A stretch of DNA of 19,370 nucleotides. It comes from a virus. Its lineage: Duplodnaviria; Heunggongvirae; Uroviricota; Caudoviricetes. The DNA lies in IMG/VR virus record IMGVR_UViG_2513237361_000014. The stretch is one strand, 5' to 3'. Below the pieces are notes generated by a model. The model did no database searches. It was not told the origin of the DNA and saw only the letters and a list, made by a program, of their open reading frames with translations. Positions 1-19,370 of this stretch are shown here, piece after piece. A program made the translations under genes and the position numbers. The number at the start of each line of letters is the position of its first letter. Within the stretch, counting starts at the first letter, position 1.

Positions 1-300
1 ATGTCTCAGCCAGCGAAAGTTTTGCTGCTGTATGCCCATCCGGAATCTCAGGACTCGGTGGCAAACCGGGTACTGCTTAAACCGGCCACGCAGCTCAGCA
101 ATGTTACCGTGCACGACCTTTACGCGCACTATCCCGATTTTTTTATTGATATTCCCCGTGAGCAGGCATTACTGCGTGAGCACGAGGTGATTGTTTTTCA
201 GCATCCGCTTTATACCTACAGTTGCCCGGCGTTACTGAAAGAGTGGCTTGACCGGGTGTTAAGCCGTGGGTTTGCCAGCGGGCCCGTCAGCACCAGCTGA
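1..300 (+). pseudogene. kefG: KefG (K+ efflux ancillary protein) 5' fragment; KefG-like sequence ends near 285, then the frame runs 5 more codons to a stop
   Basis: Translation [94 protein letters not shown] matches my recollection of the KefG N-terminus. The tail PVSTS plus stop is unrelated, and only about 95 codons are present where roughly 184 are expected. Confidence 0.6.
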
Positions 301-524
301 TTGGTCAGTTTGCTGCGCTGAAGCAGCCACAGTCGGGAGCCGTAACGGTCATTCTGTACCGCAGGCCAGGTATCCCCCCACCATCCCATCGGGACGTCGG
401 CGTTGTCATCAGGCTCCGCCCGCCGCCAGGTAAACAGGGAAATCACCACGGCGCGGGTCAGCGGATCCAGCGGTGCGCTGGCGCAGGTGCGTTTACCGTT
501 CACCGTCAGCCACAGTTCCATCAT
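216..524 (-). pseudogene. Phage baseplate/tail protein, 3'-disrupted (Mu gp46-like by position); last ~23 codons read antisense through kefG
   Basis: ORF directly follows the two baseplate genes on the same strand with a 4-bp start/stop overlap at 521-524. The first ~80 codons are phage-like; the assignment is by gene order, not recognised sequence. Confidence 0.35.
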
Positions 525-1069
525 GCCTCCATCGCTTTATCAGGTTTGTCGGTGTTACTGCCCTGACCGTTCTCTCTGTGACGATGCCCGTTATAGGCAA
601 GCCGCATCGCTGACATGGTGGTGCCGCCGGAGTCGCACAGGTCTTTCACCTGTCCGGTCACTTCCAGATCCATTTCAAAACGTGCTTCAGGTGCATTGCG
701 AAACGTGATCGTTTTCCCTGCACCGTCCACCACGATCCCCTCCCGGGTCAGCGTCACAGACTGCCCCTGATCGTCATAGACAGCCACCTCACCCGTTTGC
801 AGCCCTTTCAGGCGGTAGCGCCGGTCCGACACCGTAACAACCACCGCATGAGAACGGTCGCCATCCGGAAACAACACCACCGCTTCCGCACCGCTGTTTG
901 CCCTTGCGGTAAAACCGTAGGGTTCAAGATATTCAACCCCGGCTTTGGGTTCACCGGCAATCAGGGACACATCCACGGTCTGACATTTCGTGGCGGCACT
1001 GATGCTTTTCACCACTGCCCGCCCAATCAGGCCGAGAAGTTGTCGCTGCATGGCTTCAATCGTCCTCAT
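521..1069 (-). CDS. Phage baseplate assembly/spike protein V-like (Mu gp45-like)
   Basis: 182-aa ORF whose C-terminal region (CDSGGTTMSAMRLAYNGHRH) resembles the spike-apex region of gpV-type proteins as I recall it. Its start overlaps the upstream gene by one base at 1069. Confidence 0.55.
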   Translation of the reverse strand: MRTIEAMQRQLLGLIGRAVVKSISAATKCQTVDVSLIAGEPKAGVEYLEPYGFTARANSGAEAVVLFPDGDRSHAVVVTVSDRRYRLKGLQTGEVAVYDDQGQSVTLTREGIVVDGAGKTITFRNAPEARFEMDLEVTGQVKDLCDSGGTTMSAMRLAYNGHRHRENGQGSNTDKPDKAMEA

Positions 1070-2091
1070 CAGAACGGGTCCTCCTGTACTCTGGCTTTTT
1101 TCTTTTTCCGCGCGCCGGGGGCTTCGGGTTCAGGCAGATAAGCGTCAGGCGGGCCGACACGGATTTCCGTCAGGGTGCCGTTCTGGTCCTGAGTAAACGT
1201 GACTTCCGAGACAAGCAGTTCGGTATTGTCGAAACCACAGACCGGATCGAAGACAATCACCCGCTGGTTGGGCTGCCACAGCGTACCGTTACCCTGTCGC
1301 CAGCCCTGCACCACATAGGTGGTTTCATCCGTCCGCGCCGCCCGTTTTCGGGCTTCAAAGTCAGCACGCGCAATACAGCCTGCCCCCGTGGCCTGCCCTG
1401 TCTGCCTGATATACATCGGACGGTAACGGGCAATAAATGCGTCCTCTGTGCGGGCCCGCAGCGCGGTGGTGGTGGCCTCACCGAAATCATCGTCGTTTCC
1501 GGCACGCTGCCCCGCCACCTGGTAAACAGAAAACCGCTCCCGGATACTCTTCTCCGTATCGCAGGAAAGGATGTTTTCCCCGAGTACCAGCGCAGTATGT
1601 GCCCGCGTTGAGCCAATACCACCAATCACCAGCCTGCCGTGCGGGTCGTCGTAAGCCAGTGCCTGCTGCTGACCGAGTATTTTGTTGATTACCTCAATCA
1701 CCGTTTCACCGTGATCGGGCTGGACGTCAGGAATAACACCCGACGGCGCACCGCTGTTCACCACCTCAATGCCGAAAGGCGCAGCAAGCGCCTGCGCAAT
1801 CTGCACCAGCGAGCGTCCGTTAAACTGTGTCGGTTCGGCTGCACAGTCAATCAGGTCAGCCGTCAGACTACGTCCGGCAATACCGGTGCTGACCGAACGG
1901 GCATCGTAACGAACGGGAGTCGCCTCCACCCAGCCGGTGCTCACCAGCTCATCACCAATCAGCACTTCCACTTTTGAACCGTTTTTAATGCGCGGCTGAA
2001 GCGTGGTGATACCCTCATCTCCCGGCCATTGGCGAGTGATCTCCACACTGAAATCCCGCGCCAGCCGTTCAATACCGGCACCGATGCGCAC
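1069..2091 (-). CDS. Phage baseplate hub / late-control-D-like protein (Mu gp44-like), probably 5'-truncated
   Basis: 340-aa ORF from a GTG at 2091. The frame stays open upstream to 2142 ([23 protein letters not shown]...) with no start codon before it runs antisense into the tuf start, so the native N-terminus appears to be missing. Confidence 0.5.
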   Translation of the reverse strand: MRIGAGIERLARDFSVEITRQWPGDEGITTLQPRIKNGSKVEVLIGDELVSTGWVEATPVRYDARSVSTGIAGRSLTADLIDCAAEPTQFNGRSLVQIAQALAAPFGIEVVNSGAPSGVIPDVQPDHGETVIEVINKILGQQQALAYDDPHGRLVIGGIGSTRAHTALVLGENILSCDTEKSIRERFSVYQVAGQRAGNDDDFGEATTTALRARTEDAFIARYRPMYIRQTGQATGAGCIARADFEARKRAARTDETTYVVQGWRQGNGTLWQPNQRVIVFDPVCGFDNTELLVSEVTFTQDQNGTLTEIRVGPPDAYLPEPEAPGARKKKKARVQEDPF

Positions 2092-2135: not shown

Positions 2136-3322
<1,187 letters not shown>

Positions 3323-3326
3323 TTAG

Positions 3327-3677
3327 ACCCTTCGCCAGCGTCAGCAACGGCTGGATGCGAAGGTTAACCTGGCGGGCGGCATCAACGAGGATTTTTATCT
3401 TGCACAGCTTGCTGCCCTGGGCAGGCCAGATGCCACCATCACGCGATACGACAAAAGCACCTTCACCTGCTCATCGGCCTGTACTGACGCGGTGAATGCG
3501 CCGGAATGGCGGTATTACTGGCAGATCAACATGCCAGCCGCCACCAACACCACCTGGATGACATGTGGCGATCCCTGTGATTCCGCACTGCGTATCTGGG
3601 GCGACACCGTTGTCGAGTGTGTGCTTAACAAACTCTGCCCGTCGCATACCTACGTAATTTTTAAATATCCGGAGTAA
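3327..3677 (+). pseudogene. Phage tail/baseplate protein C-terminal fragment (gene preceding the tail fibre; Mu gp48-like by position)
   Basis: Frame opens immediately after the tuf stop region with no start codon for ~55 codons and ends ...[13 protein letters not shown] at 3677, 3 bp before the tail-fibre ATG. The ORF track's 3492..3677 is the Met-initiated part of this frame. Confidence 0.35.
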
Positions 3678-6712: not shown

Positions 6713-9286
6713 ATGCGTCTGGATCGTCTTACTAACAAATTCCAGCTTGCTCTTGCCGATGCCCAATCACTTGCACTCGGGCACGACAACCAATTCATCG
6801 AACCACTTCATTTAATGAGCGCCCTGCTGAATCAGGAAGGGGGTTCGGTTAGTCCTTTATTAACATCCGCTGGCATTAATGCTGGCCAATTGCGCACAGA
6901 TATCAATCAGGCATTAAATCGTTTACCGCAGGTTGAAGGTACAGGGGGCGATGTCCAGCCTTCACAGGATCTGGTGCGCGTTCTTAATCTTTGCGACAAG
7001 CTGGCGCAAAAACGTGGTGATAACTTTATCTCGTCAGAACTGTTTGTTCTGGCGGCACTTGAGTCTCGCGGCACGCTGGCCGACATCCTGAAAGCAGCAG
7101 GGGCGACCACCGCCAACATTACTCAAGCGATTGAACAAATGCGTGGAGGTGAAAGCGTGAATGATCAAGGAGCCGAAGACCAACGTCAGGCTTTGAAAAA
7201 ATATACCATTGACCTTACCGAACGTGCCGAACAAGGTAAACTCGATCCGGTAATTGGTCGTGATGAAGAAATTCGTCGTACCATTCAGGTACTGCAACGC
7301 CGTACTAAAAATAACCCGGTACTGATCGGTGAACCTGGTGTCGGTAAAACCGCCATCGTTGAAGGTTTGGCGCAGCGTATTATCAATGGCGAAGTACCGG
7401 AAGGGCTGAAAGGCCGCCGCGTACTGGCGCTGGATATGGGCGCGCTGGTGGCTGGGGCGAAATATCGTGGTGAGTTTGAAGAACGTCTGAAAGGCGTGCT
7501 GAACGATCTGTCGAAACAGGAAGGCAACGTCATTCTGTTTATCGATGAGCTGCACACCATGGTGGGCGCAGGTAAAGCCGATGGCGCAATGGACGCCGGG
7601 AATATGCTGAAACCGGCACTGGCCCGTGGTGAACTGCACTGCGTGGGCGCGACCACCCTTGATGAATATCGCCAGTACATTGAAAAAGATGCGGCGCTGG
7701 AGCGTCGTTTCCAGAAAGTGTTTGTTGCCGAGCCAACGGTGGAAGACACCATTGCTATTCTGCGTGGCCTGAAAGAACGTTACGAGCTGCACCACCATGT
7801 GCAAATTACTGACCCGGCAATTGTTGCAGCGGCGACGTTGTCTCATCGCTACATTGCTGACCGTCAGTTGCCAGATAAAGCCATCGACCTGATCGATGAA
7901 GCGGCATCCAGTATCCGTATGCAGATTGACTCAAAACCGGAAGAGCTTGACCGACTCGATCGTCGAATTATCCAGCTTAAGCTGGAACAACAGGCGTTAA
8001 TGAAAGAGTCTGATGAAGCCAGTAAAAAACGTCTGGATATGCTCAATGAAGAACTGAGTGACAAAGAACGCCAGTACTCTGAGTTAGAAGAGGAGTGGAA
8101 AGCAGAGAAAGCGTCACTCTCTGGCACCCAGACCATTAAAGCCGAACTGGAACAGGCGAAAATCGCCATTGAACAGGCGCGCCGTGTAGGTGATCTGGCG
8201 CGGATGTCCGAACTGCAATACGGCAAAATTCCGGAGCTCGAAAAACAACTGGAAGCGGCTACACAGCTCGAAGGCAAAACCATGCGTCTGTTGCGTAATA
8301 AAGTGACTGACGCAGAAATTGCTGAAGTGTTGGCGCGTTGGACGGGCATTCCTGTTTCTCGCATGATGGAAAGTGAGCGCGAAAAACTGCTGCGTATGGA
8401 GCAAGAACTGCACCATCGTGTTATTGGCCAAAACGAAGCCGTTGATGCGGTATCTAACGCCATTCGTCGTAGCCGTGCGGGGCTTGCGGATCCTAATCGC
8501 CCGATTGGTTCGTTCTTGTTCCTCGGTCCAACGGGTGTAGGTAAAACCGAACTCTGTAAGGCGCTGGCGAATTTTATGTTCGACAGTGACGAGGCGATGG
8601 TTCGTATCGATATGTCCGAGTTTATGGAGAAACACTCGGTGTCTCGTCTGGTTGGTGCACCTCCGGGATATGTGGGTTATGAAGAAGGTGGCTACCTGAC
8701 TGAAGCGGTGCGTCGTCGTCCTTATTCCGTCATTCTGCTGGATGAAGTGGAAAAAGCGCATCCGGATGTATTCAACATTCTGTTGCAGGTTCTGGATGAC
8801 GGACGTCTGACTGATGGGCAGGGGAGAACGGTCGATTTCCGTAATACGGTGGTCATTATGACCTCTAACCTCGGCTCCGATCTGATCCAGGAACGTTTCG
8901 GTGAACTGGATTATGCGCGCATGAAAGAGCTGGTGCTCGGCGTGGTTAGCCATAACTTCCGTCCGGAATTCATAAACCGTATTGATGAAGTTGTGGTCTT
9001 CCACCCGTTGGGTGAACAACATATCGCTTCGATTGCCCAGATCCAGTTGAAACGTCTGTACAAACGTCTGGAAGAACGTGGTTATGAAATCCACATTTCT
9101 GACGAGGCACTGAAACTGCTGAGCGAGAATGGTTACGATCCGGTTTATGGTGCACGTCCTCTGAAACGTGCTATCCAGCAACAGATCGAAAACCCGCTGG
9201 CGCAGCAAATACTGTCTGGTGAATTGGTTCCTGGCAAAGTCATTCGCCTGGAAGTTAATGAAGACCGCATTGTCGCCGTCCAGTAA
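6713..9286 (+). CDS. clpB: Chaperone ClpB (Hsp100 disaggregase)
   Basis: ATG at 6713 preceded by GGGAGGAG. Translation [18 protein letters not shown]..., two AAA+ modules with Walker A motifs ([16 protein letters not shown]), a coiled-coil middle domain, C-terminus ...EDRIVAVQ. The ORF track's 6701 start adds 4 codons that are probably not used. Confidence 0.95.
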
Positions 9287-9294
9287 ATGATAAA

Positions 9295-9322
9295 ACGAGT
9301 CCTTCGGGGCTCGTTTCTGTCT
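9295..9322 (+). terminator. Rho-independent terminator downstream of clpB
   Basis: 8-bp stem ACGAGTCC / GGGCTCGT with a TTCG tetraloop, followed by a T-rich tract (TTCTGTCT), 9 bp after the clpB stop. Confidence 0.65.
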
Positions 9323-9396
9323 ATAAGTTAGACGGAAAAGACCATGCTCGGGGTGTTTTGCCTGAAAATTGAGCGAACGATAAAGTTTTTATATTT

Positions 9397-10509
9397 TTCG
9401 TGCGTTGCGTAAACATGGTTGCTGATCTGTGGCACGCGCCTGCGCCGAAAAACGGTCAGGCCGTTGGCACCAACACCATTGGTTCTTCCGAGGCCTGTAT
9501 GCTCGGCGGGATGGCGATGAAATGGCGTTGGCGCAAGCGTATGGAAGCCGCAGGTAAACCGACCGATAAACCAAACCTGGTGTGCGGCCCGGTGCAAATC
9601 TGCTGGCATAAATTCGCCCGTTACTGGGATGTGGAGCTGCGCGAGATCCCTATGCGCCCCGGTCAGTTGTTTATGGATCCGAAACGGATGATTGAGGCCT
9701 GCGACGAAAACACCATCGGCGTGGTGCCGACTTTCGGCGTGACCTACACCGGTAACTATGAGTTCCCGCAACCGCTGCACGATGCGCTGGATAAATTCCA
9801 GGCCGACACCGGTATCGACATCGATATGCATATCGACGCTGCCAGCGGTGGCTTCCTGGCACCGTTCGTCGCCCCGGATATCGTCTGGGACTTCCGCCTG
9901 CCACGCGTGAAATCGATCAGTGCTTCTGGTCATAAATTTGGTCTGGCTCCGCTGGGCTGCGGCTGGGTTATCTGGCGTGACGAAGAAGCACTGCCGAAAG
10001 AGCTGGTGTTTAACGTTGACTATCTCGGCGGGCAAATCGGGACTTTTGCCATCAACTTCTCGCGTCCGGCGGGTCAGGTGATTGCCCAGTACTATGAATT
10101 CCTGCGCCTCGGTCGAGAAGGCTACACCAAAGTGCAGAACGCCTCTTATCAGGTCGCCACTTACCTGGCGGATGAAATCGCTAAACTGGGACCGTATGAG
10201 TTCATCTGCACCGGTCGCCCGGACGAAGGTATCCCGGCGGTTTGCTTCAAACTGAAAGACGGGGAAGATCCGGGATACACCCTGTATGACCTCTCTGAAC
10301 GTCTGCGCCTGCGCGGCTGGCAGGTTCCAGCCTTCACCCTTGGCGGTGAAGCCACTGACATCGTGGTGATGCGTATTATGTGTCGTCGTGGCTTCGAAAT
10401 GGACTTCGCTGAACTGTTGCTGGAAGACTACAAAGCCTCCCTGAAATACCTCAGCGATCACCCGAAACTGCAGGGTATTGCCCAGCAGAACAGTTTTAAA
10501 CATACCTGA
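9397..10509 (+). pseudogene. Glutamate decarboxylase (GadA/GadB-type) lacking the first ~95-100 codons and any promoter
   Basis: Translation ...[36 protein letters not shown]... through [19 protein letters not shown] (PLP-lysine region) to ...[11 protein letters not shown]. Similarity begins abruptly about 110 bp after the clpB terminator. I cannot tell gadA from gadB. Confidence 0.85.
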
Positions 10510-10556
10510 TAACCTTGTATTAATCTAATTTTTTATTTTTTTATCAATAGGTTACA

Positions 10557-11153
10557 TTAAGCCTCTTCTCTTTTTAAATTTTCATTTATTAGATTATTTC
10601 TTTCCCATAATCCGGCAAAACGTGCGGCATTACTGGCGGTATAACGCACAGTATGGCGAATATTTCGATGCCCCAGATAATCCTGAATTAAACGAGTATC
10701 TGCACCGCGCTCGGCCAGTTCATAACCGCAAGCATGTCTTAACATATGAGGGTGAGTCTGCGTCACGGTTCCAGCTTCAACACCCGCATCACGAATGATG
10801 CGATAGGCCTGCTGGCGAGAAAGTCGGCTTCCACGACGAGAAATAAATATGGCATCGGTCTGGTCAGCACCTTTCCAGTTAGAACGTTCAAGGGTCCAGC
10901 GTTCTACAGCCTCACGCTCGTCGAAACGTAGTGGATGGACAGTAGAAAATCCGTTCTTCAGCCGACGAATATTTATCCGGCCTTCATTGAGATCAAGATC
11001 CTGATAATGAAGATCAAGTAGCTCACTAATACGCATCCCGTGCCGATATGCCAACAGAATAAGACAATAATCTCTGGCTCCCGTTGCCCCATAGCAAACC
11101 GCTTGCATCATTGCCTGAACTTCTTTACCGGTAAGATAGCGACGTTTACTCAC
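10557..11153 (-). CDS. fimE: Type 1 fimbriae switch recombinase FimE (tyrosine recombinase)
   Basis: 198-aa ORF MSKRRYLTGKEVQAMMQAV...HPHMLRHACGYELAERGADTRLIQDYLGHRNIRHTVRYT, with the tyrosine-recombinase R..HxxR..Y signature. Confidence 0.92.
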   Translation of the reverse strand: MSKRRYLTGKEVQAMMQAVCYGATGARDYCLILLAYRHGMRISELLDLHYQDLDLNEGRINIRRLKNGFSTVHPLRFDEREAVERWTLERSNWKGADQTDAIFISRRGSRLSRQQAYRIIRDAGVEAGTVTQTHPHMLRHACGYELAERGADTRLIQDYLGHRNIRHTVRYTASNAARFAGLWERNNLINENLKREEA

Positions 11154-11632
11154 AATAGTAGTACTCCTGAACTGGGTTATATTTGAATGAATACCTATAG
11201 GAAAACCTCAATCGGTTAAAATTAGCCCAATAGATAAAAAGATAATCACACACGACATTGAGCGATTATCAGACGTTCACATTAAATATCATACAAAAAT
11301 AAAATATCACTGATGTGACAAAATCTATTTTCATTGATTTAATTCAATATAACAATAGAGTAAACAGAATTAACTTCCAGTTGCTTAAAAAATAAAGAAA
11401 AAAACACAATGAGGTAAGAACTTAGGTGATGTGTAAATTTATGAATGATTTTGTTTGTTTATTTTAAAAAAATAAAACCATTGTGGTTTGTATGGCTGTG
11501 GTTAAACCAATGTTTATTCTGATAATTAATGATTATACTTACAATAACATCAATTAATAAATGGTTAATTATTATTGATACATCGTAAGAATAATGTAGT
11601 TTTTAACACCATCCATGGTATCTCATCCGTTT

Positions 11633-12235
11633 TTATAAAACAGCATGGCGTTGCCGACCTCTGGGGCTATCCCAGATACCGTAAAAACGCCCTGCATTAC
11701 TGGCGGTATACCAGACAGTATGACGAATATTACGATGGCCAAGATAATCCTGGATAAGCCGTGTATCTACTCCCATATTCGCCAAAGCAAAACCACATGA
11801 ATGACGTAACATGTGAGGATGAATCTCTAGTGATAATCCAGCATTATCACCTGAAGTAGAGATGATTTGATAAAACTGTTGACGAGAAAGAGGATTCCCC
11901 TTGCGTGACAAAAACACCCACTCGCTCTCAGCATGTGGATAAGAAGTACGCATACTCAACCAGTTTTTTAAAGCCTGAACTTCTTTGTTTAAGAGCGGGT
12001 GTGTCGTTGAAAAGCCTTTTTTTAATCGATGGATATATATACACTTTGCCTTAAGATCAATATCTGAAATTCTCAATCGACAAATTTCACTCGCCCGGAA
12101 GCCATGAATAAAACAAAGTAAAGTCAGACAATAATTACGTGCAGCATGAGGCCCGGTATTTGCTGCTTTAAGGAGTAACTCGATTTCACTGTGGGTCAGG
12201 AAGTTCCTTTTTTTGTTATCAGCCTTATTCTTCAT
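11633..12235 (-). CDS. fimB: Type 1 fimbriae switch recombinase FimB
   Basis: 200-aa ORF MKNKADNKKRNFLTHSEIE...HPHMLRHSCGFALANMGVDTRLIQDYLGHRNIRHTVWYT. It lies 479 bp upstream of fimE on the same strand, as in the native fim locus. Confidence 0.92.
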   Translation of the reverse strand: MKNKADNKKRNFLTHSEIELLLKAANTGPHAARNYCLTLLCFIHGFRASEICRLRISDIDLKAKCIYIHRLKKGFSTTHPLLNKEVQALKNWLSMRTSYPHAESEWVFLSRKGNPLSRQQFYQIISTSGDNAGLSLEIHPHMLRHSCGFALANMGVDTRLIQDYLGHRNIRHTVWYTASNAGRFYGIWDSPRGRQRHAVL

Positions 12236-13262
12236 CGTTTTCCCTTATAATTGCAGACACGCACTAGCTGTACTGGGTTATTACCAGCCCAACATTTAGC
12301 CCTGATTATGTTTATAAAAGCGAACGTTTGTGTAATGACTAACGCAAGTGGATCAGCTCTTTTGAATGAACTAAAATGGAGTGGCGATAGTTACTTATAA
12401 TAACTTTGCCATACAAACGCTATATGCTCTTGTATGCTATGTTCATTAATATATTTATCAGCGTAAGACGAAATCCAATAATAAACCTCATGATCAATAT
12501 AACTATTCTTATCTATATATCATGTGATATCTTCTGTAACAAGCAAATCATCATAAAAATTTAATATTGCTTCTGTCAGCCATCTCACACATAACATTAT
12601 TAGTCAACTCTGTTTTTCCGCATAATTGCTATTTCATAGAAACCGGTAATTTTCAGGTGGCTATTATCATGCTAATGCTTAGTTTCCTAGCCATTATTAT
12701 CCTTTGGTTCGTAAACTCATGCTGTGAGGTTGTTACATCCCTTTTTCATACTGTGTATTTCCCGGAGATATGAGGAAAGCCAGGACACGCTTTTTCCATC
12801 TGCATTCGTTGCTAAAGATAGCTTTGGTCACTACGACTTAAACCTTCCTGACTCACAGCTATTCGCCGGGTGATACGGCAACAAACGGATTGAAACATCA
12901 TCCTGAAAATACCGATGCGTGCTGAACATCAACAAGCCTGCCCGGAACAACTCCGGGAGTTCCCAGCTACGTGCCACAAAGCAGGAAACATATTTCATGA
13001 TGAGAATTATGCCCAGTCTGATGGCGGATAGACACTTATCTTTACCATGCTCGCTGAGTTATCTTGCAAATCGCCTCCTGTTTGAACTAAAAATAAATAA
13101 CATATAAAACAAATAATTAAAGAAAAACCTTTGGTTTATGAAGAGCTCCGCAAGTGGTCATCTGGCTTCACATAGCATCTTCTTCTTAGAAAAATATCGA
13201 CATATTTTGTGACACGAATTGCAAATCTGGTTTTGTTGTATGGATTGTGTGATTTTTGATCT

Positions 13263-13281
13263 GGTATAACAGGTATAAAGG
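13263..13281. promoter_or_regulatory. NanR-type operator (GGTATA hexamer repeats) in the fimB-nanC divergent regulatory region
   Basis: GGTATAACAGGTATAAAGG, with repeated GGTATA units of the kind bound by NanR at sialic-acid promoters, about 430 bp upstream of nanC in a 1.46 kb AT-rich intergenic region. Confidence 0.5.
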
Positions 13282-13692
13282 TTCACCAAGACAATAAATG
13301 AAGCTGGGCATCTCGCAATCTATGACAAACATCACTTCAGTTCTTTCTCATCGGGTGATGAAAACGCACTTCAGTCTGAAAGGAGTATGAAAATGAGATC
13401 AACAAACAATCTATTTTATGACTCTGGGTAAAATGGATTGAGTAAGTGATATAGCTTACGAACATTCAAATCAATTAAACATCAGAAGAGATTTTATACT
13501 CAGGTATTTAATCTGGTCCTCTGTATATTTAAATAATGTGGAAAGTGAATTTTCACAGGAGACCTTATACAAAAAATATAAAATACAGCTATCCGCTGCC
13601 AAAGACACTATAAGCCTGGCAAAAAATATTACACGACATAAATGCTAATTGTTTATGCGGGCTTTGTATTACTTTCTGTATCCTACAAATGA

Positions 13693-14418
13693 GTGAAATT
13701 TATGAAAAAGGCTAAAATACTTTCTGGCGTATTATTACTCTGCTTTTCGTCGCCATTAATTTCTCAGGCTGCAACACTGGACGTCCGTGGTGGATATCGT
13801 AGTGGGAGCCATGCTTATGAAACTCGACTCAAAGTCAGTGAGGGATGGCAAAATGGATGGTGGGCAAGTCTTGAAAGTAATACCTGGAACACTATTCATG
13901 ATAATAAAAAAGAAAATGCCGCACTCAATGATGTTCAGGTCGAAGTTAATTACGCAATAAAACTTGATGATCAATGGACTGTGCGCCCGGGAATGTTAAC
14001 CCATTTTAGCAGCAACGGTACACGCTACGGACCTTACGTAAAACTGTCCTGGGATGCGACAAAAGATCTCAATTTTGGCATTCGCTATCGTTACGACTGG
14101 AAAGCCTACCGACAGCAAGACTTATCCGGCGATATGTCTCGTGATAACGTTCATCGTTGGGATGGATATGTCACTTACCATATTAATAGTGATTTCACCT
14201 TCGCCTGGCAAACAACGCTATACAGCAAACAAAACGATTATCGCTATGCAAACCATAAGAAATGGGCGACGGAAAATGCATTTGTTCTACAATACCATAT
14301 GACGCCAGATATTACGCCATACATAGAATATGACTACCTTGACCGTCAGGGTGTTTACAACGGTAGAGATAATTTATCTGAAAACAGTTATCGCATTGGT
14401 GTGTCATTTAAACTGTAG
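13693..14418 (+). CDS. nanC: N-acetylneuraminic acid outer-membrane channel NanC (KdgM family); start could be 13693 or the ATG at 13702
   Basis: Signal peptide (MKKAKILSGVLLLCFSSPLISQA), beta-barrel pattern, C-terminal ...YRIGVSFKL. Confidence 0.85.
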   Translation: MKFMKKAKILSGVLLLCFSSPLISQAATLDVRGGYRSGSHAYETRLKVSEGWQNGWWASLESNTWNTIHDNKKENAALNDVQVEVNYAIKLDDQWTVRPGMLTHFSSNGTRYGPYVKLSWDATKDLNFGIRYRYDWKAYRQQDLSGDMSRDNVHRWDGYVTYHINSDFTFAWQTTLYSKQNDYRYANHKKWATENAFVLQYHMTPDITPYIEYDYLDRQGVYNGRDNLSENSYRIGVSFKL

Positions 14419-14437
14419 TAGACAGGAGACAGTCACA

Positions 14438-15544
14438 ATGAATAAAAAAATAATGGCACTTGCTATCATAATGGCTTCATTTGCCGCAAACGCGTCTGTA
14501 TTACCAGAAACCCCTGTGCCTTTTAAAAGCGGTACTGGAGTGATTGATAACAACACTGTCTACATTGGTTTAGGTAGCGCAGGAGCAGCATGGTACAAGC
14601 TGGATACGCAAGCCAAAGATAAGAAATGGATAGCCCTGGCGGAATTCCCGGCTGGCCCGAGAGATCAAGCAACCTCTGCATTTATTGATGGTAATTTGTA
14701 TGTATTTGGCGGTGTTGGTAAAAACAGAGATGGGTTAACTCAGGTATTCAACGACGTACACAAATATAATCCCGAAACCAATACCTGGGTTAAATTGATG
14801 TCACACGCACCGATGGGCATGGCGGGTCATGTGACTTTTGTACACAACGGCAAGGCTTATGTTACTGGCGGTGTTAACCAGAATATCTTCAATGGCTATT
14901 TTGAAGATCTCAATGAGGCTGGAAAAGATTCAAAGACTATAGATAAAATCAACGCCAACTATTTTGACAAAAAAGCAGAAGATTATTTCTTCAATAAGTT
15001 TCTGTTGTCTTTTGAGCCCTCTACACAGCAATGGAGTTATGCTGGTGAATCTCCCTGGTACGGTACGGCTGGAGCGGCGGTAGCAAATAAAGGTGATAAA
15101 ACCTGGCTTATTAATGGCGAGGCAAAACCAGGATTGCGAACTGATGCTGTATTTGAGCTTGATTTCACCAGCAATAACATAAAATGGAATAAACTTTCTC
15201 CCGTCTCCTCACCGGATGGCGTAGCTGGCGGTTTTGCTGGTATTAGCAATGACTCTCTTATATTTGCCGGAGGAGCCGGATTTAAAGGTTCACGGGAAAA
15301 TTACCAGAACGGTAAGAACTATGCGCATGAAGGCCTGAAAAAATCGTATAGCGCTGATATTCATCTTTGGCATAACGGGAAATGGGAGAAATCTGGCGAA
15401 CTGTCGCAAGGTCGGGCCTACGGAGTATCATTACCCTGGAATAATAGCTTATTGATTATTGGCGGTGAAACTACGGGCGGCAAAGCTGTGGCGGATTCAG
15501 TGTTACTCTCTGTGAAAGATAATAAAGTGACTGTGCAAAACTAA
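14438..15544 (+). CDS. nanM: N-acetylneuraminate mutarotase NanM (YjhT), Kelch-repeat periplasmic protein
   Basis: ATG at 14438 preceded by AGGAGA. Signal peptide MNKKIMALAIIMASFAANA, with repeated GG/GGV Kelch-like motifs. The ORF track's 14330 start includes an untranslated leader. Confidence 0.88.
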   Translation: MNKKIMALAIIMASFAANASVLPETPVPFKSGTGVIDNNTVYIGLGSAGAAWYKLDTQAKDKKWIALAEFPAGPRDQATSAFIDGNLYVFGGVGKNRDGLTQVFNDVHKYNPETNTWVKLMSHAPMGMAGHVTFVHNGKAYVTGGVNQNIFNGYFEDLNEAGKDSKTIDKINANYFDKKAEDYFFNKFLLSFEPSTQQWSYAGESPWYGTAGAAVANKGDKTWLINGEAKPGLRTDAVFELDFTSNNIKWNKLSPVSSPDGVAGGFAGISNDSLIFAGGAGFKGSRENYQNGKNYAHEGLKKSYSADIHLWHNGKWEKSGELSQGRAYGVSLPWNNSLLIIGGETTGGKAVADSVLLSVKDNKVTVQN

Positions 15545-15549
15545 CTTTT

Positions 15550-15573
15550 CAGGGCTCCAGTAAAGGAGCCCTG
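15550..15573 (+). other. Perfect 9-bp stem-loop between nanM and nanS
   Basis: CAGGGCTCC - AGTAAA - GGAGCCCTG, 6 bp after the nanM stop. It has no strong U-tract, so it is more likely an RNA-stability or processing hairpin within the operon than a full terminator. Confidence 0.4.
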
Positions 15574-15608
15574 ATATCAATTCATCATTTTAATTACGCG
15601 ACATTTAT

Positions 15609-16595
15609 ATGAACGCAATAATATCGCCCGATTATTACTATGTTCTTACCGTTGCCGGTCAGTCTAATGCTATGGCGTATGGCGAAGGACTCCCGTTACC
15701 AGACAGTGAAGATGCGCCTCATCCCAGAATAAAACAACTGGCGAGATTCACTCAGACGCATCCCGGTGGCCCGTTATGTCAATTTAATGACATTATTCCA
15801 CTGACTCACTGCCCACACGATGTCCAGGATATGCAGGGTTATCACCATCCTCTGGCAACGAATCATCAAACACAGTACGGCACCGTTGGCCAGGCACTAC
15901 ATATTGCGCGGAAATTACTGCCCTTCATTCCTGATAATGCAGGCGTTCTTATCGTTCCCTGTTGCCGTGGTGGATCGGCTTTTACCACGGGCAGCGAAGG
16001 GACATATTCAGAACAGCACGGAGCCAGCCATGATTCATGTCGTTGGGGAGCGGATACTCCGCTGTATCAGGATTTAGTCAACAGAACACGAACGGCACTG
16101 TCAAAGAATCCGCAGAATAAATTCCTCGGCATATGCTGGATGCAGGGCGAATTTGACTTAATGACCAGTGACTACGCGTTACATCCTCAATACTTTAATC
16201 ATATGGTTGAAGCCTTTCGTGAGGATTTGAAACAGTATCGTTCTCAGCTTAATAATATTGCTGCCGCTCCGTGGTTTTGCGGCGATACCACCTGGTACTG
16301 GAAAGAAAATTACTCTCATGCGTATGATACGATTTATGGCAATTATAAAAATAATGCCTTAGCCAATATTATTTTCGTCGGCTTCCAGCAACAAGGTGAA
16401 AGAGGGCTGACGAACGAGCCAGATGAAGATCCGGACGATTTTAGCACGGGATATTACGGTTCAGCGTACCGAACACCAGAAAACTGGACGACGGTGCTAC
16501 GCAGCAGTCATTTCAGCTCAGCAGCCCGTCGGGGGATTATTTCTGACAAATTTGTTGAAGCTATTTTACGGTATTGGTGCGAAAGGTGGCTTTAA
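15609..16595 (+). CDS. nanS: N-acetyl-9-O-acetylneuraminate esterase NanS (YjhS)
   Basis: 328-aa ORF MNAIISPDYYYVLTVAGQSNAMAYGEG..., with an SGNH-like esterase N-terminus (GQSNA), following nanC-nanM as in the nanCMS operon. Confidence 0.85.
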   Translation: MNAIISPDYYYVLTVAGQSNAMAYGEGLPLPDSEDAPHPRIKQLARFTQTHPGGPLCQFNDIIPLTHCPHDVQDMQGYHHPLATNHQTQYGTVGQALHIARKLLPFIPDNAGVLIVPCCRGGSAFTTGSEGTYSEQHGASHDSCRWGADTPLYQDLVNRTRTALSKNPQNKFLGICWMQGEFDLMTSDYALHPQYFNHMVEAFREDLKQYRSQLNNIAAAPWFCGDTTWYWKENYSHAYDTIYGNYKNNALANIIFVGFQQQGERGLTNEPDEDPDDFSTGYYGSAYRTPENWTTVLRSSHFSSAARRGIISDKFVEAILRYWCERWL

Positions 16596-16596
16596 T

Positions 16597-16905
16597 ATGC
16601 GCCACGATGACACCACCGTCGCGCTGGAAGCGGCGCATATAAAATGGAAACAGCACGGCGGCCCTTGTGAAATCCCCAATGGTCTGGCGCTTTGCGCAAT
16701 TCACCATAAAGCCTTTGATAAAGGATCGATTGGCCTGGATGAAAATATGCGGGTACTGGTCTCGGATGCGGTAAACGGCGGAGGGATCGTTGAGAAACTA
16801 TTCTGGGATTTTGACGGGAAAACTATTGCGTTGCCGCAGGTGCGTAAAAATTACCCTTTTGAGGGGTTTGTGGAGTGGCATCGGAAAGAGGTTTTTAGGG
16901 GGTGA
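16597..16905 (+). pseudogene. HNH-nuclease-family C-terminal fragment (~103 codons)
   Basis: MRHDDTTVALEAAHIKWKQHGGPCEIPNGLALCAIHHKAFDKGSIGLDENMRVLV carries an H-N-H core (AAHIKW ... NGLALCAIHH). The ATG sits 1 bp after the nanS stop with no room for the N-terminal domain expected of full-length proteins. The ORF track's 16423 start is an out-of-frame overlap with nanS. Confidence 0.45.
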
Positions 16906-16912
16906 GGTTTGC

Positions 16913-16956
16913 TGTAAATAGACCCGTTTTAGTTCCATGCATTTTTTGAGCTCCCG
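16913..16956. repeat. Left inverted repeat (38 bp perfect, 44 bp with one mismatch)
   Basis: TGTAAATAGACCCGTTTTAGTTCCATGCATTTTTTGAG at 16913-16950 is the exact reverse complement of 18137-18174. The match extends to 16956 / 18131 with one mismatch. Confidence 0.9.
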
Positions 16957-17264
16957 ACACTGCTAAATCCGCGCTGGGGCAAGTTGGGTTTAGGTTGCGC
17001 CAGAAGATGGCAACTCATCATGGTATGCAGTTCGTTCCATGGCTGAGAGTCACACTGGAGCAAGAGTTTGTACATAACAATCCGGCCAAAGTTAATGATG
17101 ATAATTTCAATAACGATATTGCCGGAACAAGAGGAAGTTGCCAGGCTGGCATCAGCGCGGCTACCACGCCGCACACACATATTTACGCCAGCATAAATTA
17201 TGAGAAAGGTGATGGGGTGGAATCGCCATGGACTGGAAACATTGGCTTTAATTATAGTTTCTAA
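16950..17264 (+). pseudogene. Outer-membrane beta-barrel protein C-terminal fragment (autotransporter- or porin-type)
   Basis: Frame opens right at the inner edge of the left repeat and ends ...YASINYEKGDGVESPWTGNIGFNYSF, with a C-terminal aromatic residue and alternating hydrophobic pattern typical of barrel C-termini. There is no signal peptide or N-terminal domain. Confidence 0.4.
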
Positions 17265-17370
17265 TATGGCATTTCATGTTTATATCAATTCCTATATATC
17301 CATTGCTTTTACAATCAAATGAGAACACCATTCATTATCTTAACAATAGAGATGAAGTCAGGAGACAGCC

Positions 17371-17964
17371 ATGTCATTGCTAGAGTCATTTGGGAAAGTA
17401 TTAATTATATTGCTTGAAGCATTTTTAGGGAAACGCAAAGGTCAGGAGGAAGCACATATTAATTTTTTAAATGAATATACGAAAGAAAACTGCAACCATC
17501 GTTTGGTAGAATATTGGTTTTGTCAGCTCACAGGATGGCGTTACGCAAAGTACCAGGATATTGTTTTTATAATGATCTCATCCGACCCATCAAAAATATT
17601 GTATATGGCTAAAGGCATTAATTACATTGCCCGTACAGTGGAATTTATTGATAGTGGAGAATGCAAACTATCCGATAGATATAAAGAAACGAAAAAGAAT
17701 ACATTCCTCTTTTTGTTCATATCATTCATGATCATTTTCTTCATATTAATTGCCTGGATGGTATCCTCTGTAATATCTCTGATAACACATCATCATGATG
17801 TCATATTAATGGCTATAAATATTTCATCGATAATAGCAGGTGCGATTTTTATCATGTGCTTTGCATTCTTCATTCATGCAATAACAATGGAGTTTTTTGC
17901 CTTTGAAAAGGCAGAGCATTTTGTAAAATCTTACAATGCAGAAAGAGCATCATCAGGTCGTTAA
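17371..17964 (+). CDS. Hypothetical membrane protein (197 aa), unrecognised
   Basis: ATG with AGGAGA 7 bp upstream. AT-rich codon usage unlike the flanking genes. Hydrophobic N-terminus, a ~100-aa hydrophilic region, then two strong transmembrane helices (FLFLFISFMIIFFILIAWMVSSVISLI and VILMAINISSIIAGAIFIMCFAFFIHAI). Confidence 0.55.
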   Translation: MSLLESFGKVLIILLEAFLGKRKGQEEAHINFLNEYTKENCNHRLVEYWFCQLTGWRYAKYQDIVFIMISSDPSKILYMAKGINYIARTVEFIDSGECKLSDRYKETKKNTFLFLFISFMIIFFILIAWMVSSVISLITHHHDVILMAINISSIIAGAIFIMCFAFFIHAITMEFFAFEKAEHFVKSYNAERASSGR

Positions 17965-18130
17965 TGTTTGCCTCTATATTAATGCTACTGCTATCGCCAC
18001 CTATTAATATCTGCCAATCAATAGGCAAAAAGGTGATACCAGTGGCATCAAAATTTCAGCCAAACAATCTTTGTAAGACGAAGATCTCTGATTTAGCACT
18101 GCACTGATTTTGGGCCAGGGTCAATTTGGC

Positions 18131-18174
18131 CGGGATCTCAAAAAATGCATGGAACTAAAACGGGTCTATTTACA
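18131..18174. repeat. Right inverted repeat, partner of 16913-16956
   Basis: Reverse complement of 18137-18174 equals 16913-16950 exactly. Confidence 0.9.
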
Positions 18175-18306
18175 ACCGGACTGTCAGCGGCAACACTCCC
18201 GCACATGGATTATGAGGTGGCAGGCACACCGGCACAGCGCAAGGTGTGGCAGGACAAAATAGACCAGCAGGCAGCAGAGCTTAAGGCCAGAGGACTGCTG
18301 TCATGA
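18145..18306 (+). CDS. Short ORF (53 aa), possibly the 3' remnant of a P4-like late gene (sid-like by position only)
   Basis: Its ATG lies inside the right repeat; translation MHGTKTGLFTTGLSAATLPHMDYEVAGTPAQRKVWQDKIDQQAAELKARGLLS. Its stop overlaps the next ATG (ATGA), a hallmark of coupled phage genes. No sequence-level identification. Confidence 0.2.
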   Translation: MHGTKTGLFTTGLSAATLPHMDYEVAGTPAQRKVWQDKIDQQAAELKARGLLS

Positions 18307-18383
18307 TGCGCTGCCATTTCTGTCGTCATTCTGCGCATACCCGCACCGGCAAGCACAGCACCGGCTGTTGTCCGAAAAGTTAA
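18303..18383 (+). pseudogene. Ogr/Delta-family zinc-finger transcription activator, N-terminal stub (26 codons)
   Basis: MMRCHFCRHSAHTRTGKHST aligns with the P2 Ogr N-terminus as I recall it (MFHCPLCQHAAHARTSRYIT): the C-x2-C, H-x-A-H and R-T positions are conserved. It then terminates early, whereas full Ogr/Delta proteins are 72-166 aa. Confidence 0.4.
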
Positions 18384-18437
18384 AGGCTGTTACAGCTCAC
18401 CATTCAACCATTAATCAGGAGACGGGGTGTGACTACA

Positions 18438-18572
18438 ATGTCATTACAGCAGGCTTTTGAGGTCTGCCAGAATAATAAAGCGGCATGGCTTCAGCGCAAA
18501 AATGAACTAGCGGCAGCCGAACAGGAATATCTGCGGCTTCTGTCCGGGGAAGGCAGGAATGTCAGCCGGCTT
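18438..18572 (+). pseudogene. psu: Polarity suppression protein Psu (P4-type) N-terminal ~45 codons; after ~18572 the frame runs into unrelated sequence
   Basis: MSLQQAFEVCQNNKAAWLQRKNELAAAEQEYLRLLSGEGRNVSRL matches the Psu N-terminus from memory. Similarity stops exactly where the convergent minus-strand ORF ends (18571). Confidence 0.5.
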
Positions 18573-18705
18573 ACGGGTTCCAGACAATGTCCGGGCAGCG
18601 GTACGGCATTTCCCACGGAATACCGTCTTCCAGAATGCCGACCACGGCCACATCGGGAAAACCGGCAGAACGGTAAATCTCACCGGGCTGGGGAAAATCA
18701 AACAT
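18571..18705 (-). CDS. Small ORF A (44 aa), hypothetical
   Basis: [44 protein letters not shown]. Its ATG overlaps the stop of ORF B (ATGTTTGA). It is below the 60-aa cutoff of the ORF track. Confidence 0.3.
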   Translation of the reverse strand: MFDFPQPGEIYRSAGFPDVAVVGILEDGIPWEMPYRCPDIVWNP

Positions 18706-18985
18706 GCGTCCTGTCTCCCCGGTCTTTCTGCTGGGCGAGAAAATCGCGGCACAGGCCTTTGGCTTTCAGCTCATTCAGCACAAAATCAATATCTTCATTC
18801 AGGTAGCTGAAAATATGCGGAATATAGAGCTGATGCAGGCCGGAGAGTTCACGGTGAATCAAATCACCCCCAACAAACTGGGATACGGCGCTGGCGCGGT
18901 TGAGCTTATGGTAAGCCTCAATGCTGAGGTGTTCACGGGCGTCATGACGCGCTGAGACGGTCTGAGGGGCTTTTTTATTACGCAC
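18698..18985 (-). CDS. Small ORF B (~95 aa from GTG at 18985), hypothetical
   Basis: GGAGG lies 6 nt upstream of the GTG. Protein-like composition (...[69 protein letters not shown]...). The 147-aa form in the ORF track has an implausible Pro/Val/Cys-rich N-terminus. Confidence 0.4.
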
Positions 18986-19133
18986 GGGACACCTCCACCA
19001 CCGGCAGACGGGCAGCAAGGGAGAGCACATAGTCACGGACAAGGGAACGGCGGGCGCTGCGTTCATCACCGGCGACGGTGCGAAGCATACAGATACGGGG
19101 ATGACGGTCTGCGCGACGGACAGCCGCAAACAC
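18978..19133 (-). CDS. Small ORF C (51 aa from GTG at 19133, or 36 aa from ATG at 19088), hypothetical
   Basis: ...[36 protein letters not shown]. Its stop overlaps the ORF B start (GTGCGTAA). Coding status is uncertain. Confidence 0.25.
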
Positions 19134-19214
19134 AAAGACAAATTCAGGGTGTGAGGGGGTAAGGGTTGTAGCCAGGAAAAGCGCGCCAGCCGTCAGGTGA
19201 CAGTCCCGGCGGTG

Positions 19215-19370
19215 ATGCTGGAAAAAGTGATGGCGCTGGCAGGCAGTGAAATGAAGCGCCTGTATGCCGTCGGGAGTGAGAACGGGGGCGACGGTGACGC
19301 ATTCGTCAGGGAGGAACGCGAAGCAATGGACGTTGTGTTACAGGCGCTGGACGGGGAGCACATGTCATGA
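19215..19370 (+). CDS. Small ORF (51 aa), hypothetical; stop TGA at the window end overlaps an ATG (ATGA) that would start a gene beyond the window
   Basis: [51 protein letters not shown] has protein-like composition. It is divergent from ORF C across a ~60-bp gap. Confidence 0.3.

What the first reader, a model, noticed from the sequence alone, without database searches (positions are those of the whole stretch)
18145..18572. Compressed P4-satellite-like late-operon remnant: short ORF, Ogr/Delta zinc-finger stub, truncated psu
Within about 430 bp there are three consecutive plus-strand reading frames with phage-style coupling: a 53-codon ORF whose stop overlaps the next ATG, a 26-codon Ogr/Delta-like zinc-finger N-terminus, and the first ~45 codons of Psu. 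All are far shorter than the full genes, so this is a relic rather than a functional satellite. It still marks the neighbourhood as P4-type island DNA.
Basis: partly seen in the sequence, partly recalled or inferred. Interest (0 to 1): 0.45.

Follow-up and report, generated by a model that had tools for sequence, protein, structure and literature searches.

The report
Decayed P4-satellite remnant, partly assembly artefact
This is a dead leftover of a P4-type phage satellite (tail of sid, a frameshifted delta, the start of psu) in Escherichia marmotae TW09308, and the abrupt end of psu is most likely where two draft contigs were glued together, not a biological truncation.

Summary
The three short plus-strand ORFs exist as described. 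They derive from the P4 sid-delta-psu late operon (blastn E 1e-37 to 1e-104; Pfam Psu 46.5 bits).

- The 53-codon ORF is the last 43 codons of sid, fused to a start codon inside an IS3-family end.
- The 26-codon ORF keeps 15 codons of an 81-aa Ogr-sized delta. A 134-bp internal deletion then shifts the frame.
- psu starts at 18438 and stops matching at 18571.

The window belongs to GenBank AEME01000001.1 (Escherichia sp. TW09308, clade V, E. marmotae). Eight other assemblies share block 10514-18571 at 99.65-99.96%. All continue with psu (shared premature stop after codon 113), cos, a PvuII-like restriction-modification cargo, a split integrase and tRNA-Leu leuX. The sid and delta lesions are therefore real and species-wide.

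The psu break is most likely a flush contig join. The same record holds an isolated tuf repeat, a gad repeat piece ending at the gadA/gadB repeat edge, a break 4 nt from the fimS repeat, a 606-bp P4 block and a 534-bp plasmid piece. The psu break lies 2 nt after the last allele-specific SNP.

This is an ordinary relic of a known kind and of low interest.

The parts
16913..16956 (.). Copy of an IS3-family terminal sequence. It is the inverted partner of 18131-18174.
   Evidence: Inverted repeat I1, 44 nt, 98% complementary. The partner matches ends of annotated IS3-family transposase genes in E. coli at 98-100%.
18075..18123 (.). 49-bp fragment of a second IS3-family element.
   Evidence: 100% match to IS3-family transposase features in E. 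coli (H55, H56). 95% match to 'ISBp1 transposase B' places in Salmonella records.
18124..18174 (.). Solo end of an IS3-family element. Its outer terminus at 18174 abuts sid at 18175 and it supplies the ATG (18145) of the 53-codon ORF.
   Evidence: sid homology to L001 and P4 begins exactly at 18175.
18145..18306 (+). 53-codon chimeric ORF: about 10 codons from the IS end plus the last 43 codons of sid.
   Evidence: phrog_6165 (Sid family) positions 198-241/242, E 4.9e-13. Alignment to P4 Sid C-terminus TGLSAATLPHMDYEVAGTPAQRKVWQDKIDQQ(G/A)AELKARGLLS.
18175..18306 (+). 3' end of sid (Sid residues ~202-244: linker loop plus C-terminal helix alpha6).
   Evidence: blastn to P4 10186-10317 and L001 13507-13638. 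Structural assignment of residues from PMC7552001.
18303..18383 (+). 26-codon delta stub: 15 Delta codons with the first CxxC pair, then 11 frameshifted codons.
18339..18350 (.). Junction of the 134-bp internal deletion in delta. These 12 nt align to both L001 13671-13682 and 13805-13816 (imperfect microhomology GCACCrGC).
18351..18414 (+). Out-of-frame 3' end of delta (would read ...PAVVRKVKGCYSSPFNH*), with the native stop at 18412-18414.
   Evidence: Alignment to L001 13817-13880. Read directly from the sequence against L001 Delta.
18438..18571 (+). 5' end of psu (44.7 codons) with its Shine-Dalgarno sequence at about 18415-18426.
   Evidence: Pfam Psu 46.5 bits. phrog_6366 E 5.6e-14. blastn. 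ATG position from L001 psu start 13904.
18571..18572 (.). Breakpoint between the psu-bearing block and the P4 left-operon block. Most likely a flush join of two draft contigs in the record.
   Evidence: All 8 related assemblies match 10514-18571 and diverge at exactly this base. It lies 2 nt after the last allele-specific SNP of psu. There is no microhomology.
18572..19177 (-). 606-bp block equal to P4 7762-8367 (99.2%). It holds the first 44 codons of orf151 (ORF 18571-18705), epsilon/derepression gene (18698-18985, GTG start) and the 3' 66 codons of the Icd/Ash-like gene (18978-19177).
   Evidence: Pfam Derepression 170 bits. phrog_10748 positions 1-44/151. phrog_6928 positions 152-202/202.
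19174..19370 (.). Start of a 534-bp piece of conjugative-plasmid DNA (DUF1380 region), 99.6-99.8% identical to E. coli plasmid records. It is unrelated to P4.
   Evidence: L018 19760-20293 corresponds to window 19174-19707.

Best explanation
Window 18145-18571 is the decayed late (capsid-hijacking) operon of a P4-like satellite that once sat at the leuX tRNA-Leu gene next to the fim-nan region of Escherichia marmotae.

Two lesions are real and fixed in the species:
- A deletion bounded by an IS3-family end removed everything left of sid codon ~202: the Psid promoter, the AlpA/epsilon/alpha side and most of sid.
- A 134-bp deletion between short imperfect repeats removed the middle of an 81-aa Ogr-sized delta and shifted its frame.

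In the living genome psu almost certainly runs on as in eight sister assemblies. There it reaches a shared nonsense codon after residue 113 and is followed by cos, a PvuII-type restriction-modification cargo in the known psu-int defence hotspot, a split integrase and leuX.

The abrupt end of psu at 18571, and its abutment to an inverted-looking orf151'-epsilon block, is an artefact of the source record. AEME01000001.1 is a pseudo-molecule in which draft contigs, including small collapsed-repeat contigs, were joined flush without spacers. The psu contig ended where psu becomes identical to other psu copies in the genome.

Nothing here can work as a satellite module. There is no late promoter. 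Sid lacks its dimer/trimer body, Delta lacks its second Cys pair, and Psu is truncated.

Shown: homology, the lesions, their conservation, and the patchwork nature of the record. Inferred: IS-mediated deletion as the mechanism, the contig join at 18571/18572, and the true continuation in TW09308.
For: Source record: window 8571-19370 is 100% identical to AEME01000001.1. That record is named Escherichia spp. TW09308 in PMC3850674, is clade V, and is listed among E. marmotae.

Conservation: eight other assemblies match 10514-18571 at 99.65-99.96% with the same sid and delta lesions. They continue with psu, cos (GGCGAGGCGGGGAAAGCAC at L005 11796), PvuII-like R/C/M genes, a split integrase, the attP core and tRNA-Leu(CAA). 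All eight share the psu stop after codon 113.

Patchwork record:
- An isolated tuf repeat unit at 2137-3328 has neither tufA nor tufB flanks.
- A gad piece at 9401-10513 ends exactly at the K-12 gadA/gadB repeat edge.
- The next block starts 4 nt from the fimS inverted repeat TGGCCCCAA.
- A 606-bp P4 block is followed by a 534-bp plasmid piece.

The psu break: mismatches between this psu allele and six P4-type psu genes are dense up to the base equivalent to 18569, and the next ones come only at +39/+41 and +101/+103 nt (one comparator, L003, also differs at the first base past the break and one, L015, at +24). The break therefore sits at the unique/repeat boundary.

PMC3850674 reports a PvuII-like RM system on this same record. 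A real deletion from psu rightwards would have removed it.

The psu-int hotspot next to cos that carries type II RM systems is described in PMC9122126.
Against: I could not retrieve the rest of the TW09308 record to show the other half of psu at a contig start. No paper describing how the record was built is held.

Tandem P4-like elements at leuX do exist in this species (L006), so a real deletion between two tandem elements is mechanistically possible.

E. coli TOK-001 has a real junction at the same P4 coordinate 7762. This shows that true breakpoints can occur at this position.
Confidence: 0.85

Rival explanations
1. The psu'|'orf151 junction is real. TW09308 once carried two P4-like satellites in tandem at leuX. 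An illegitimate deletion of roughly 7-8 kb ran from psu codon 45 of the older element, through its cos, cargo, integrase and att site, into orf151 codon 44 of the younger element.
For: The order and orientation fit exactly: P4 coordinates ...11030 are followed by 7762... on the same strand. A tandem second P4-like element directly after the first is seen in L006.
Against: Only 606 bp of the supposed second element is present. It is followed by plasmid DNA and Rhs/gabP sequence, not by the rest of a satellite. The same record shows several other flush joins at repeat edges. The break sits 2 nt after the last allele-specific SNP. A PvuII-like RM is reported on the record although this deletion would remove it. 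The left end of the same block (10514) is also unique to this record.
Confidence: 0.1
2. A large chromosomal inversion or translocation with end points in psu and in orf151 of a distant P4-like element moved the fim-nan-psu' block next to clpB and gabP.
For: The window places clpB on one side and, beyond its end, gabP-csiR on the other. These are not the neighbours of fim/leuX in the relatives.
Against: It would need at least four independent breakpoints, each landing on a repeat edge (tuf, gad, fimS, psu SNP boundary). It would also need the insertion of isolated tuf, gad and plasmid pieces. Contig concatenation explains all of these at once.
Confidence: 0.03
3. The remnant is a retained, working mini-module. 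One example would be the chimeric 53-aa Sid C-terminal peptide, expressed from the IS end, interfering with P2-type capsid assembly.
For: The piece kept is Sid residues ~202-244, the linker plus helix alpha6 that makes most contacts with gpN (PMC7552001). It has acquired an ATG and is conserved in all nine assemblies.
Against: Conservation at 99.7-100% only reflects how close the strains are. No sigma-70-like promoter was found in 17900-19370. Neighbouring delta and psu are plainly decaying, and L009 has acquired a second stop in psu. Sid needs its dimer/trimer body to form the cage (PMC7552001).
Confidence: 0.02

Closest known systems
Enterobacteria phage P4 late operon sid-delta-psu (NC_001609, 9583-11460)
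   Same: Same gene order, strand and ATGA sid/delta overlap. The sid 3' end is 90.5% identical and the psu 5' end 85% identical at DNA level.
   Different: Only the last 43 of 244 sid codons are present. delta is of the short 81-aa type, not the 166-aa double-domain P4 type, and carries a 134-bp internal deletion. The Psid promoter and everything upstream are missing.
P4-like satellite at selC of E. coli TUM12355 (NZ_CP134376.1, L001)
   Same: Closest intact relative found for this operon. It is 97.2% identical over sid'/delta 5' and 95.3% over delta 3'/psu 5', with the same 81-aa delta.
   Different: That element keeps delta, psu, the integrase and the alpha/epsilon side, although its own sid is also partial. 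The window keeps none of them intact.
leuX-associated P4-like island remnant of other E. marmotae assemblies (L004-L011, e.g. CP099351.1)
   Same: The same locus and the same lesions, 99.65-99.96% identical over 10514-18571.
   Different: They continue with psu (stop after codon 113), cos, a PvuII-like RM, a split integrase and leuX. The window record switches at 18572 to an unrelated 606-bp P4 block.
psu-int defence hotspot of P4-like satellites (Rousset et al. 2022, PMC9122126)
   Same: In the relatives, a type II (PvuII-like) RM system sits between cos/psu and int, which is the described hotspot position.
   Different: The hotspot is not inside the window. Here the carrier satellite is dead, so the RM system would be a stranded cargo and not part of a mobile satellite.

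Membership tests
P4-like satellite (seven core components of SatelliteFinder, PMC10085698: Int, Psu, Delta, Sid, AlpA, epsilon/Ash, alpha) | Sid (capsid size-determining scaffold), complete gene | tested here: not met
   Only the last 43 of 244 codons are present (18175-18306). phrog_6165 positions 198-241/242.
P4-like satellite (seven core components of SatelliteFinder, PMC10085698: Int, Psu, Delta, Sid, AlpA, epsilon/Ash, alpha) | Delta (Ogr/Delta zinc-finger transactivator), complete gene with both Cys pairs | tested here: not met
   15 native codons with the first CxxC only, then a frameshift after a 134-bp deletion. No Pfam Ogr_Delta hit.
P4-like satellite (seven core components of SatelliteFinder, PMC10085698: Int, Psu, Delta, Sid, AlpA, epsilon/Ash, alpha) | Psu, complete gene | tested here: not met
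   44.7 codons in the window (Pfam Psu positions 1-40/182, 46.5 bits). In eight sister assemblies there is a stop after codon 113 of 190.
P4-like satellite (seven core components of SatelliteFinder, PMC10085698: Int, Psu, Delta, Sid, AlpA, epsilon/Ash, alpha) | P4-type tyrosine integrase next to a tRNA att site | tested here: not met
   There is none in the window; the only tyrosine recombinases are fimB and fimE. No attP core within 3 mismatches. In relatives the integrase is split into two ORFs next to tRNA-Leu(CAA).
P4-like satellite (seven core components of SatelliteFinder, PMC10085698: Int, Psu, Delta, Sid, AlpA, epsilon/Ash, alpha) | AlpA-type regulator and alpha primase-helicase | tested here: not met
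   Neither gene is listed within the window part covered by L012/L018, and the eight single-copy relatives show none in this element. The IS3 end replaces that side.
P4-like satellite (seven core components of SatelliteFinder, PMC10085698: Int, Psu, Delta, Sid, AlpA, epsilon/Ash, alpha) | epsilon/Ash derepression gene belonging to the same element | tested here: inconclusive
   An intact 95-aa epsilon lies at 18698-18985 (Pfam Derepression, 170 bits). It sits on the separate 606-bp block, which most likely comes from another P4-like copy and another contig.
P4-like satellite (seven core components of SatelliteFinder, PMC10085698: Int, Psu, Delta, Sid, AlpA, epsilon/Ash, alpha) | cos packaging site | tested here: not met
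   No match to either P4 cos end within 3 mismatches in the window. It is present in relatives at L005 11774-11817.
Ogr/Delta zinc-finger family (Pfam PF04606) | Four-cysteine zinc finger (CxxC ... CxxxxC) | tested here: not met
   Only C4 and C7 of MMRCHFC remain. The second pair (CQNIYC in L001 Delta) lies in the deleted 134 bp.

The most novel reading that the evidence does not exclude
The chimeric 53-codon ORF joins an IS-end start codon to Sid residues ~202-244, the helix that contacts the P2 capsid protein gpN. It might be a domesticated peptide, kept in E. marmotae, that disturbs capsid assembly of incoming P2-like phages or of their satellites.
Probability: 0.02. Interest if true: 0.5.

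Novelty: already known. Interest (0 to 1): 0.1.

Why it matters
Biologically it matters little. Decayed P4-like satellites at tRNA genes are common in Enterobacteria, and this one adds nothing new to how satellites work.

The practical lesson concerns data quality. The source record is a pseudo-molecule of flush-joined draft contigs. Apparent gene truncations, fusions and odd neighbourhoods in this window should therefore not be read as biology without checking against other E. marmotae genomes. This applies to psu'|orf151', the isolated tuf and gad pieces, the end at fimS and the plasmid snippet.

The comparison also shows a small, tidy example of a type II RM cargo outliving its satellite carrier at leuX.

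Tried and rejected
(1) Exact-pattern scans of the species-representative genome collection found nothing, so the representative genomes lack this allele. I scanned for the psu|orf151 junction and for the IS|sid junction.

(2) Exact-product look-ups of the chimeric Psu-fusion ORF (122 and 125 aa) found nothing. This is uninformative, because the ORF was not called even on the source record.

(3) An Rfam scan of 16500-19370 found only chance-level hits and no P4 CI RNA or C4-type RNA.

(4) My first model was a real deletion between tandem satellites. I demoted it after finding the other flush joins at repeat edges and the SNP-boundary position of the break.

(5) I tried to fetch the TW09308 PvuII-like RM locus to see the reciprocal end.

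(6) The PNAS 2011 genome paper for TW09308 is not held.

(7) The promoter scan found no sigma-70-like site in 17900-19370.

(8) The 197-aa membrane-like ORF at 17371-17964 has no Pfam or PHROG family.

Full report
**Observation.** The three consecutive plus-strand ORFs exist as described:
- 18145-18306, 53 codons.
- 18303-18383, 26 codons, with its ATG overlapping the previous TGA.
- An ORF from GTG 18429 / ATG 18438 whose first 44.7 codons, up to 18571, are Psu.

Similarity to P4 is unambiguous:
- 18175-18343 matches P4 10186-10354 (end of sid, start of delta) at 90.5%, E 1e-63.
- 18444-18571 matches P4 10903-11030 (start of psu) at 85%, E 4e-37.
- A P4-like element at selC of E. coli TUM12355 (L001) matches better: 97.2% over 18175-18350 and 95.3% over 18339-18571.

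At protein level, the Psu piece passes Pfam's Psu threshold (46.5 bits against 27.4). The 53-aa ORF hits the Sid family phrog_6165 at positions 198-241 of 242. The ATGA overlap is the native sid/delta overlap of P4.

**Anatomy.**

(a) Left edge. A 51-bp IS3-family end (18124-18174) stops at 18174 and sid homology starts at 18175.
- The ATG of the 53-codon ORF (18145) lies inside this IS end, so the ORF is a chimera of about 10 foreign codons plus Sid residues ~202-244.
- An inverted copy of the same IS end lies at 16913-16956.
- Between the two copies are an autotransporter C-terminal fragment and a 197-aa ORF with no known family.

(b) delta. Bases 18339-18350 align to two places in L001, 13671-13682 and 13805-13816.
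- This means a 134-bp deletion between imperfect short repeats (GCACCrGC) inside an 81-aa, Ogr-sized delta.
- The frame shifts. Only MMRCHFCRHSAHTRT, with the first Cys pair, is native.
- The 3' end of delta persists out of frame up to its own stop at 18412-18414.

(c) psu. It begins at ATG 18438 and reads normally to 18571.

(d) Beyond the break. From 18572 to 19177 the sequence equals P4 7762-8367 at 99.2%, on the same strand sense as P4's map. On the minus strand it carries the first 44 codons of orf151, an intact epsilon, and the last 66 codons of the Icd/Ash-like gene.

(e) From about 19174 the sequence is a 534-bp piece of conjugative-plasmid DNA, 99.6-99.8% identical to E. coli plasmid records.

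**Source and relatives.**
- Window 8571-19370 is 100% identical to NCBI AEME01000001.1 of assembly GCA_000208565.2.
- PMC3850674 names that record Escherichia spp. TW09308. The strain is clade V, from freshwater in Michigan, and is listed among E. marmotae.
- The 197-aa ORF led to eight other assemblies (L004-L011). All eight align to the window from exactly 10514 to exactly 18571 at 99.65-99.96%, and they carry the same sid and delta lesions.

Beyond 18571 the eight relatives continue with the following:
- psu, with a shared stop after codon 113. L009 has an extra stop.
- The P4 cos site.
- A PvuII-like endonuclease, C protein and N4/N6 methyltransferase.
- A P4-type integrase split into two ORFs.
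- The attP core and tRNA-Leu(CAA), which is leuX.

The RM system therefore sits in the psu-int hotspot next to cos described for P4-like satellites (PMC9122126). One relative (L006) has a second, different P4-like element in tandem after the first.

**What the break at 18571/18572 is.** I first modelled it as a deletion between tandem satellites, because order and orientation fit. The rest of the window argues otherwise.
- A complete tuf repeat unit (2137-3328) sits alone between phage baseplate genes and the bamD-rluD-yfiH-clpB block. It has neither tufA nor tufB flanks.
- A gad fragment (9401-10513) ends exactly where gadA and gadB stop being repeats in K-12.
- The next block starts 4 nt from the fimS inverted repeat TGGCCCCAA. 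A phase-variable population is expected to break an assembly there.
- The 606-bp P4 block is followed by a 534-bp plasmid piece, then by Rhs-tip/immunity genes and gabP.

These are the marks of draft contigs, including small collapsed-repeat contigs, joined flush into one 4.8-Mb record.

The psu break fits the same pattern. Mismatches between this psu allele (taken from L005) and six P4-type psu genes are dense up to the base equivalent to 18569. After that the shared next mismatches come only about 40 and 100 nt later (one comparator, L003, also differs at the first base past the break and one, L015, at +24). The contig therefore ended where psu becomes a repeat. There is no microhomology at the join.

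PMC3850674 also reports a PvuII-like RM system on this same record. A real deletion from psu rightwards would have removed it.

I could not fetch the reciprocal end. The contig-join reading is therefore an inference, held at about 0.85.

**How it works.** It does not work. In P4 the operon is driven by the Delta/Ogr-activated Psid promoter.
- Sid builds the external cage that forces P2 gpN into small capsids.
- Delta transactivates late promoters.
- Psu antagonises Rho and decorates capsids.

These roles are established knowledge; the Sid structure is in PMC7552001. Here the promoter and the first 201 Sid codons are gone, Delta lacks its second Cys pair, and Psu is truncated. No sigma-70-like promoter was detected in 17900-19370.

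Of the seven core components used to define P4-like satellites (PMC10085698), none is intact within the element. The intact epsilon lies on the foreign 606-bp block.

The likely history is as follows, with steps 2 to 4 inferred:
1. A P4-like satellite with a PvuII-like RM cargo integrated at leuX.
2. An IS3-family element caused a deletion of its left half.
3. A slipped deletion hit delta.
4. Point mutations hit psu and int.

The RM cargo is the only part with a plausible remaining function. It may help the remnant persist, but I did not test that.

**Comparison and novelty.** The closest known items are the P4 late operon itself, the short-delta P4-like elements of E. coli such as L001, and the same relic in other E. 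marmotae genomes. This is a dead derivative of a well-known family, not a member by any functional criterion, and not a new kind of element.

**Unexplained detail.** E. coli TOK-001 (L013/L025) has a real junction between an internal IS66 transposase fragment and orf151 at the same P4 coordinate 7762. Two short-read contigs from other samples also end there. If TW09308 has a TOK-001-like copy plus another P4-like copy, this would explain why its collapsed 606-bp contig starts exactly at 18572. I could not check this.

**Verdict.** One of the three 'truncations' is probably an artefact of the record. Interest is low.

Noticed in passing
window 2137-3328: A complete tuf (EF-Tu) repeat unit sits alone between phage baseplate genes and the bamD block, with neither tufA nor tufB flanks. 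It also has a frameshift near 2624-2636 that splits it into 175- and 163-aa ORFs. It is probably a collapsed-repeat contig with a sequencing error.
   Followed up: partly
window 9401-10513: The 3' 1.1 kb of a gadA/gadB-type glutamate decarboxylase gene lies between clpB and fimE. It ends exactly at the K-12 gadA/gadB repeat edge. This is another isolated repeat contig.
   Followed up: partly
window 10510-10514: The block shared with all relatives starts 4 nt from the fimS inverted repeat TGGCCCCAA. The fimS switch and the fimA-H operon that follow fimE in relatives are missing from this position in the record.
   Followed up: partly
window 16913-18174: Two 44-nt inverted copies of an IS3-family end bracket a 1.17-kb piece. 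The piece holds an autotransporter beta-barrel C-terminal fragment (16995-17264) and a 197-aa hydrophobic ORF (17371-17964) with no Pfam or PHROG family. The same piece without the IS ends occurs at 91.9% in one E. coli genome (MS 16-3).
   Followed up: partly
window 19174-19370 (continues to about 19707 in L018): A 534-bp fragment 99.6-99.8% identical to E. coli plasmid records (DUF1380 protein region) is embedded in a chromosome record. Two small overlapping ORFs (57 and 63 aa) have no family hit.
   Followed up: partly
L012 7682-8973 (beyond the window end): An orphan Rhs C-terminal tip (PxxxxDPxGL motif followed by a toxin domain, 166 aa) with a likely immunity gene (126 aa) lies next to REP-rich DNA and gabP-csiR.
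   Followed up: no
L005 11842-13668 (relatives; not in the window): A PvuII-like type II restriction-modification system (endonuclease, C protein, N4/N6 methyltransferase) occupies the cos-proximal psu-int hotspot of the dead satellite in E. marmotae.
   Followed up: partly
L006 15177-20594: One E. marmotae assembly has a second, different P4-like element (alpha, DUF5375, Ash, AlpA, sid, 81-aa delta) inserted in tandem at the att site of the first.
   Followed up: no
L013/L025 (E. coli TOK-001, NZ_AP018395.1 about 4604719-4605227): orf151 of a P4-like element is cut after codon 44 by an internal fragment of an IS66 transposase gene. The cut is at the same P4 coordinate (7762) where the window's 606-bp block begins. 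It gives the identical 44-aa product (WP_010381230.1).
   Followed up: partly
window 1-2091: Mu/P2-type baseplate genes (GP46, Gp45/V-like, GpP-like) on the minus strand end 45 bp before the isolated tuf piece.
   Followed up: no
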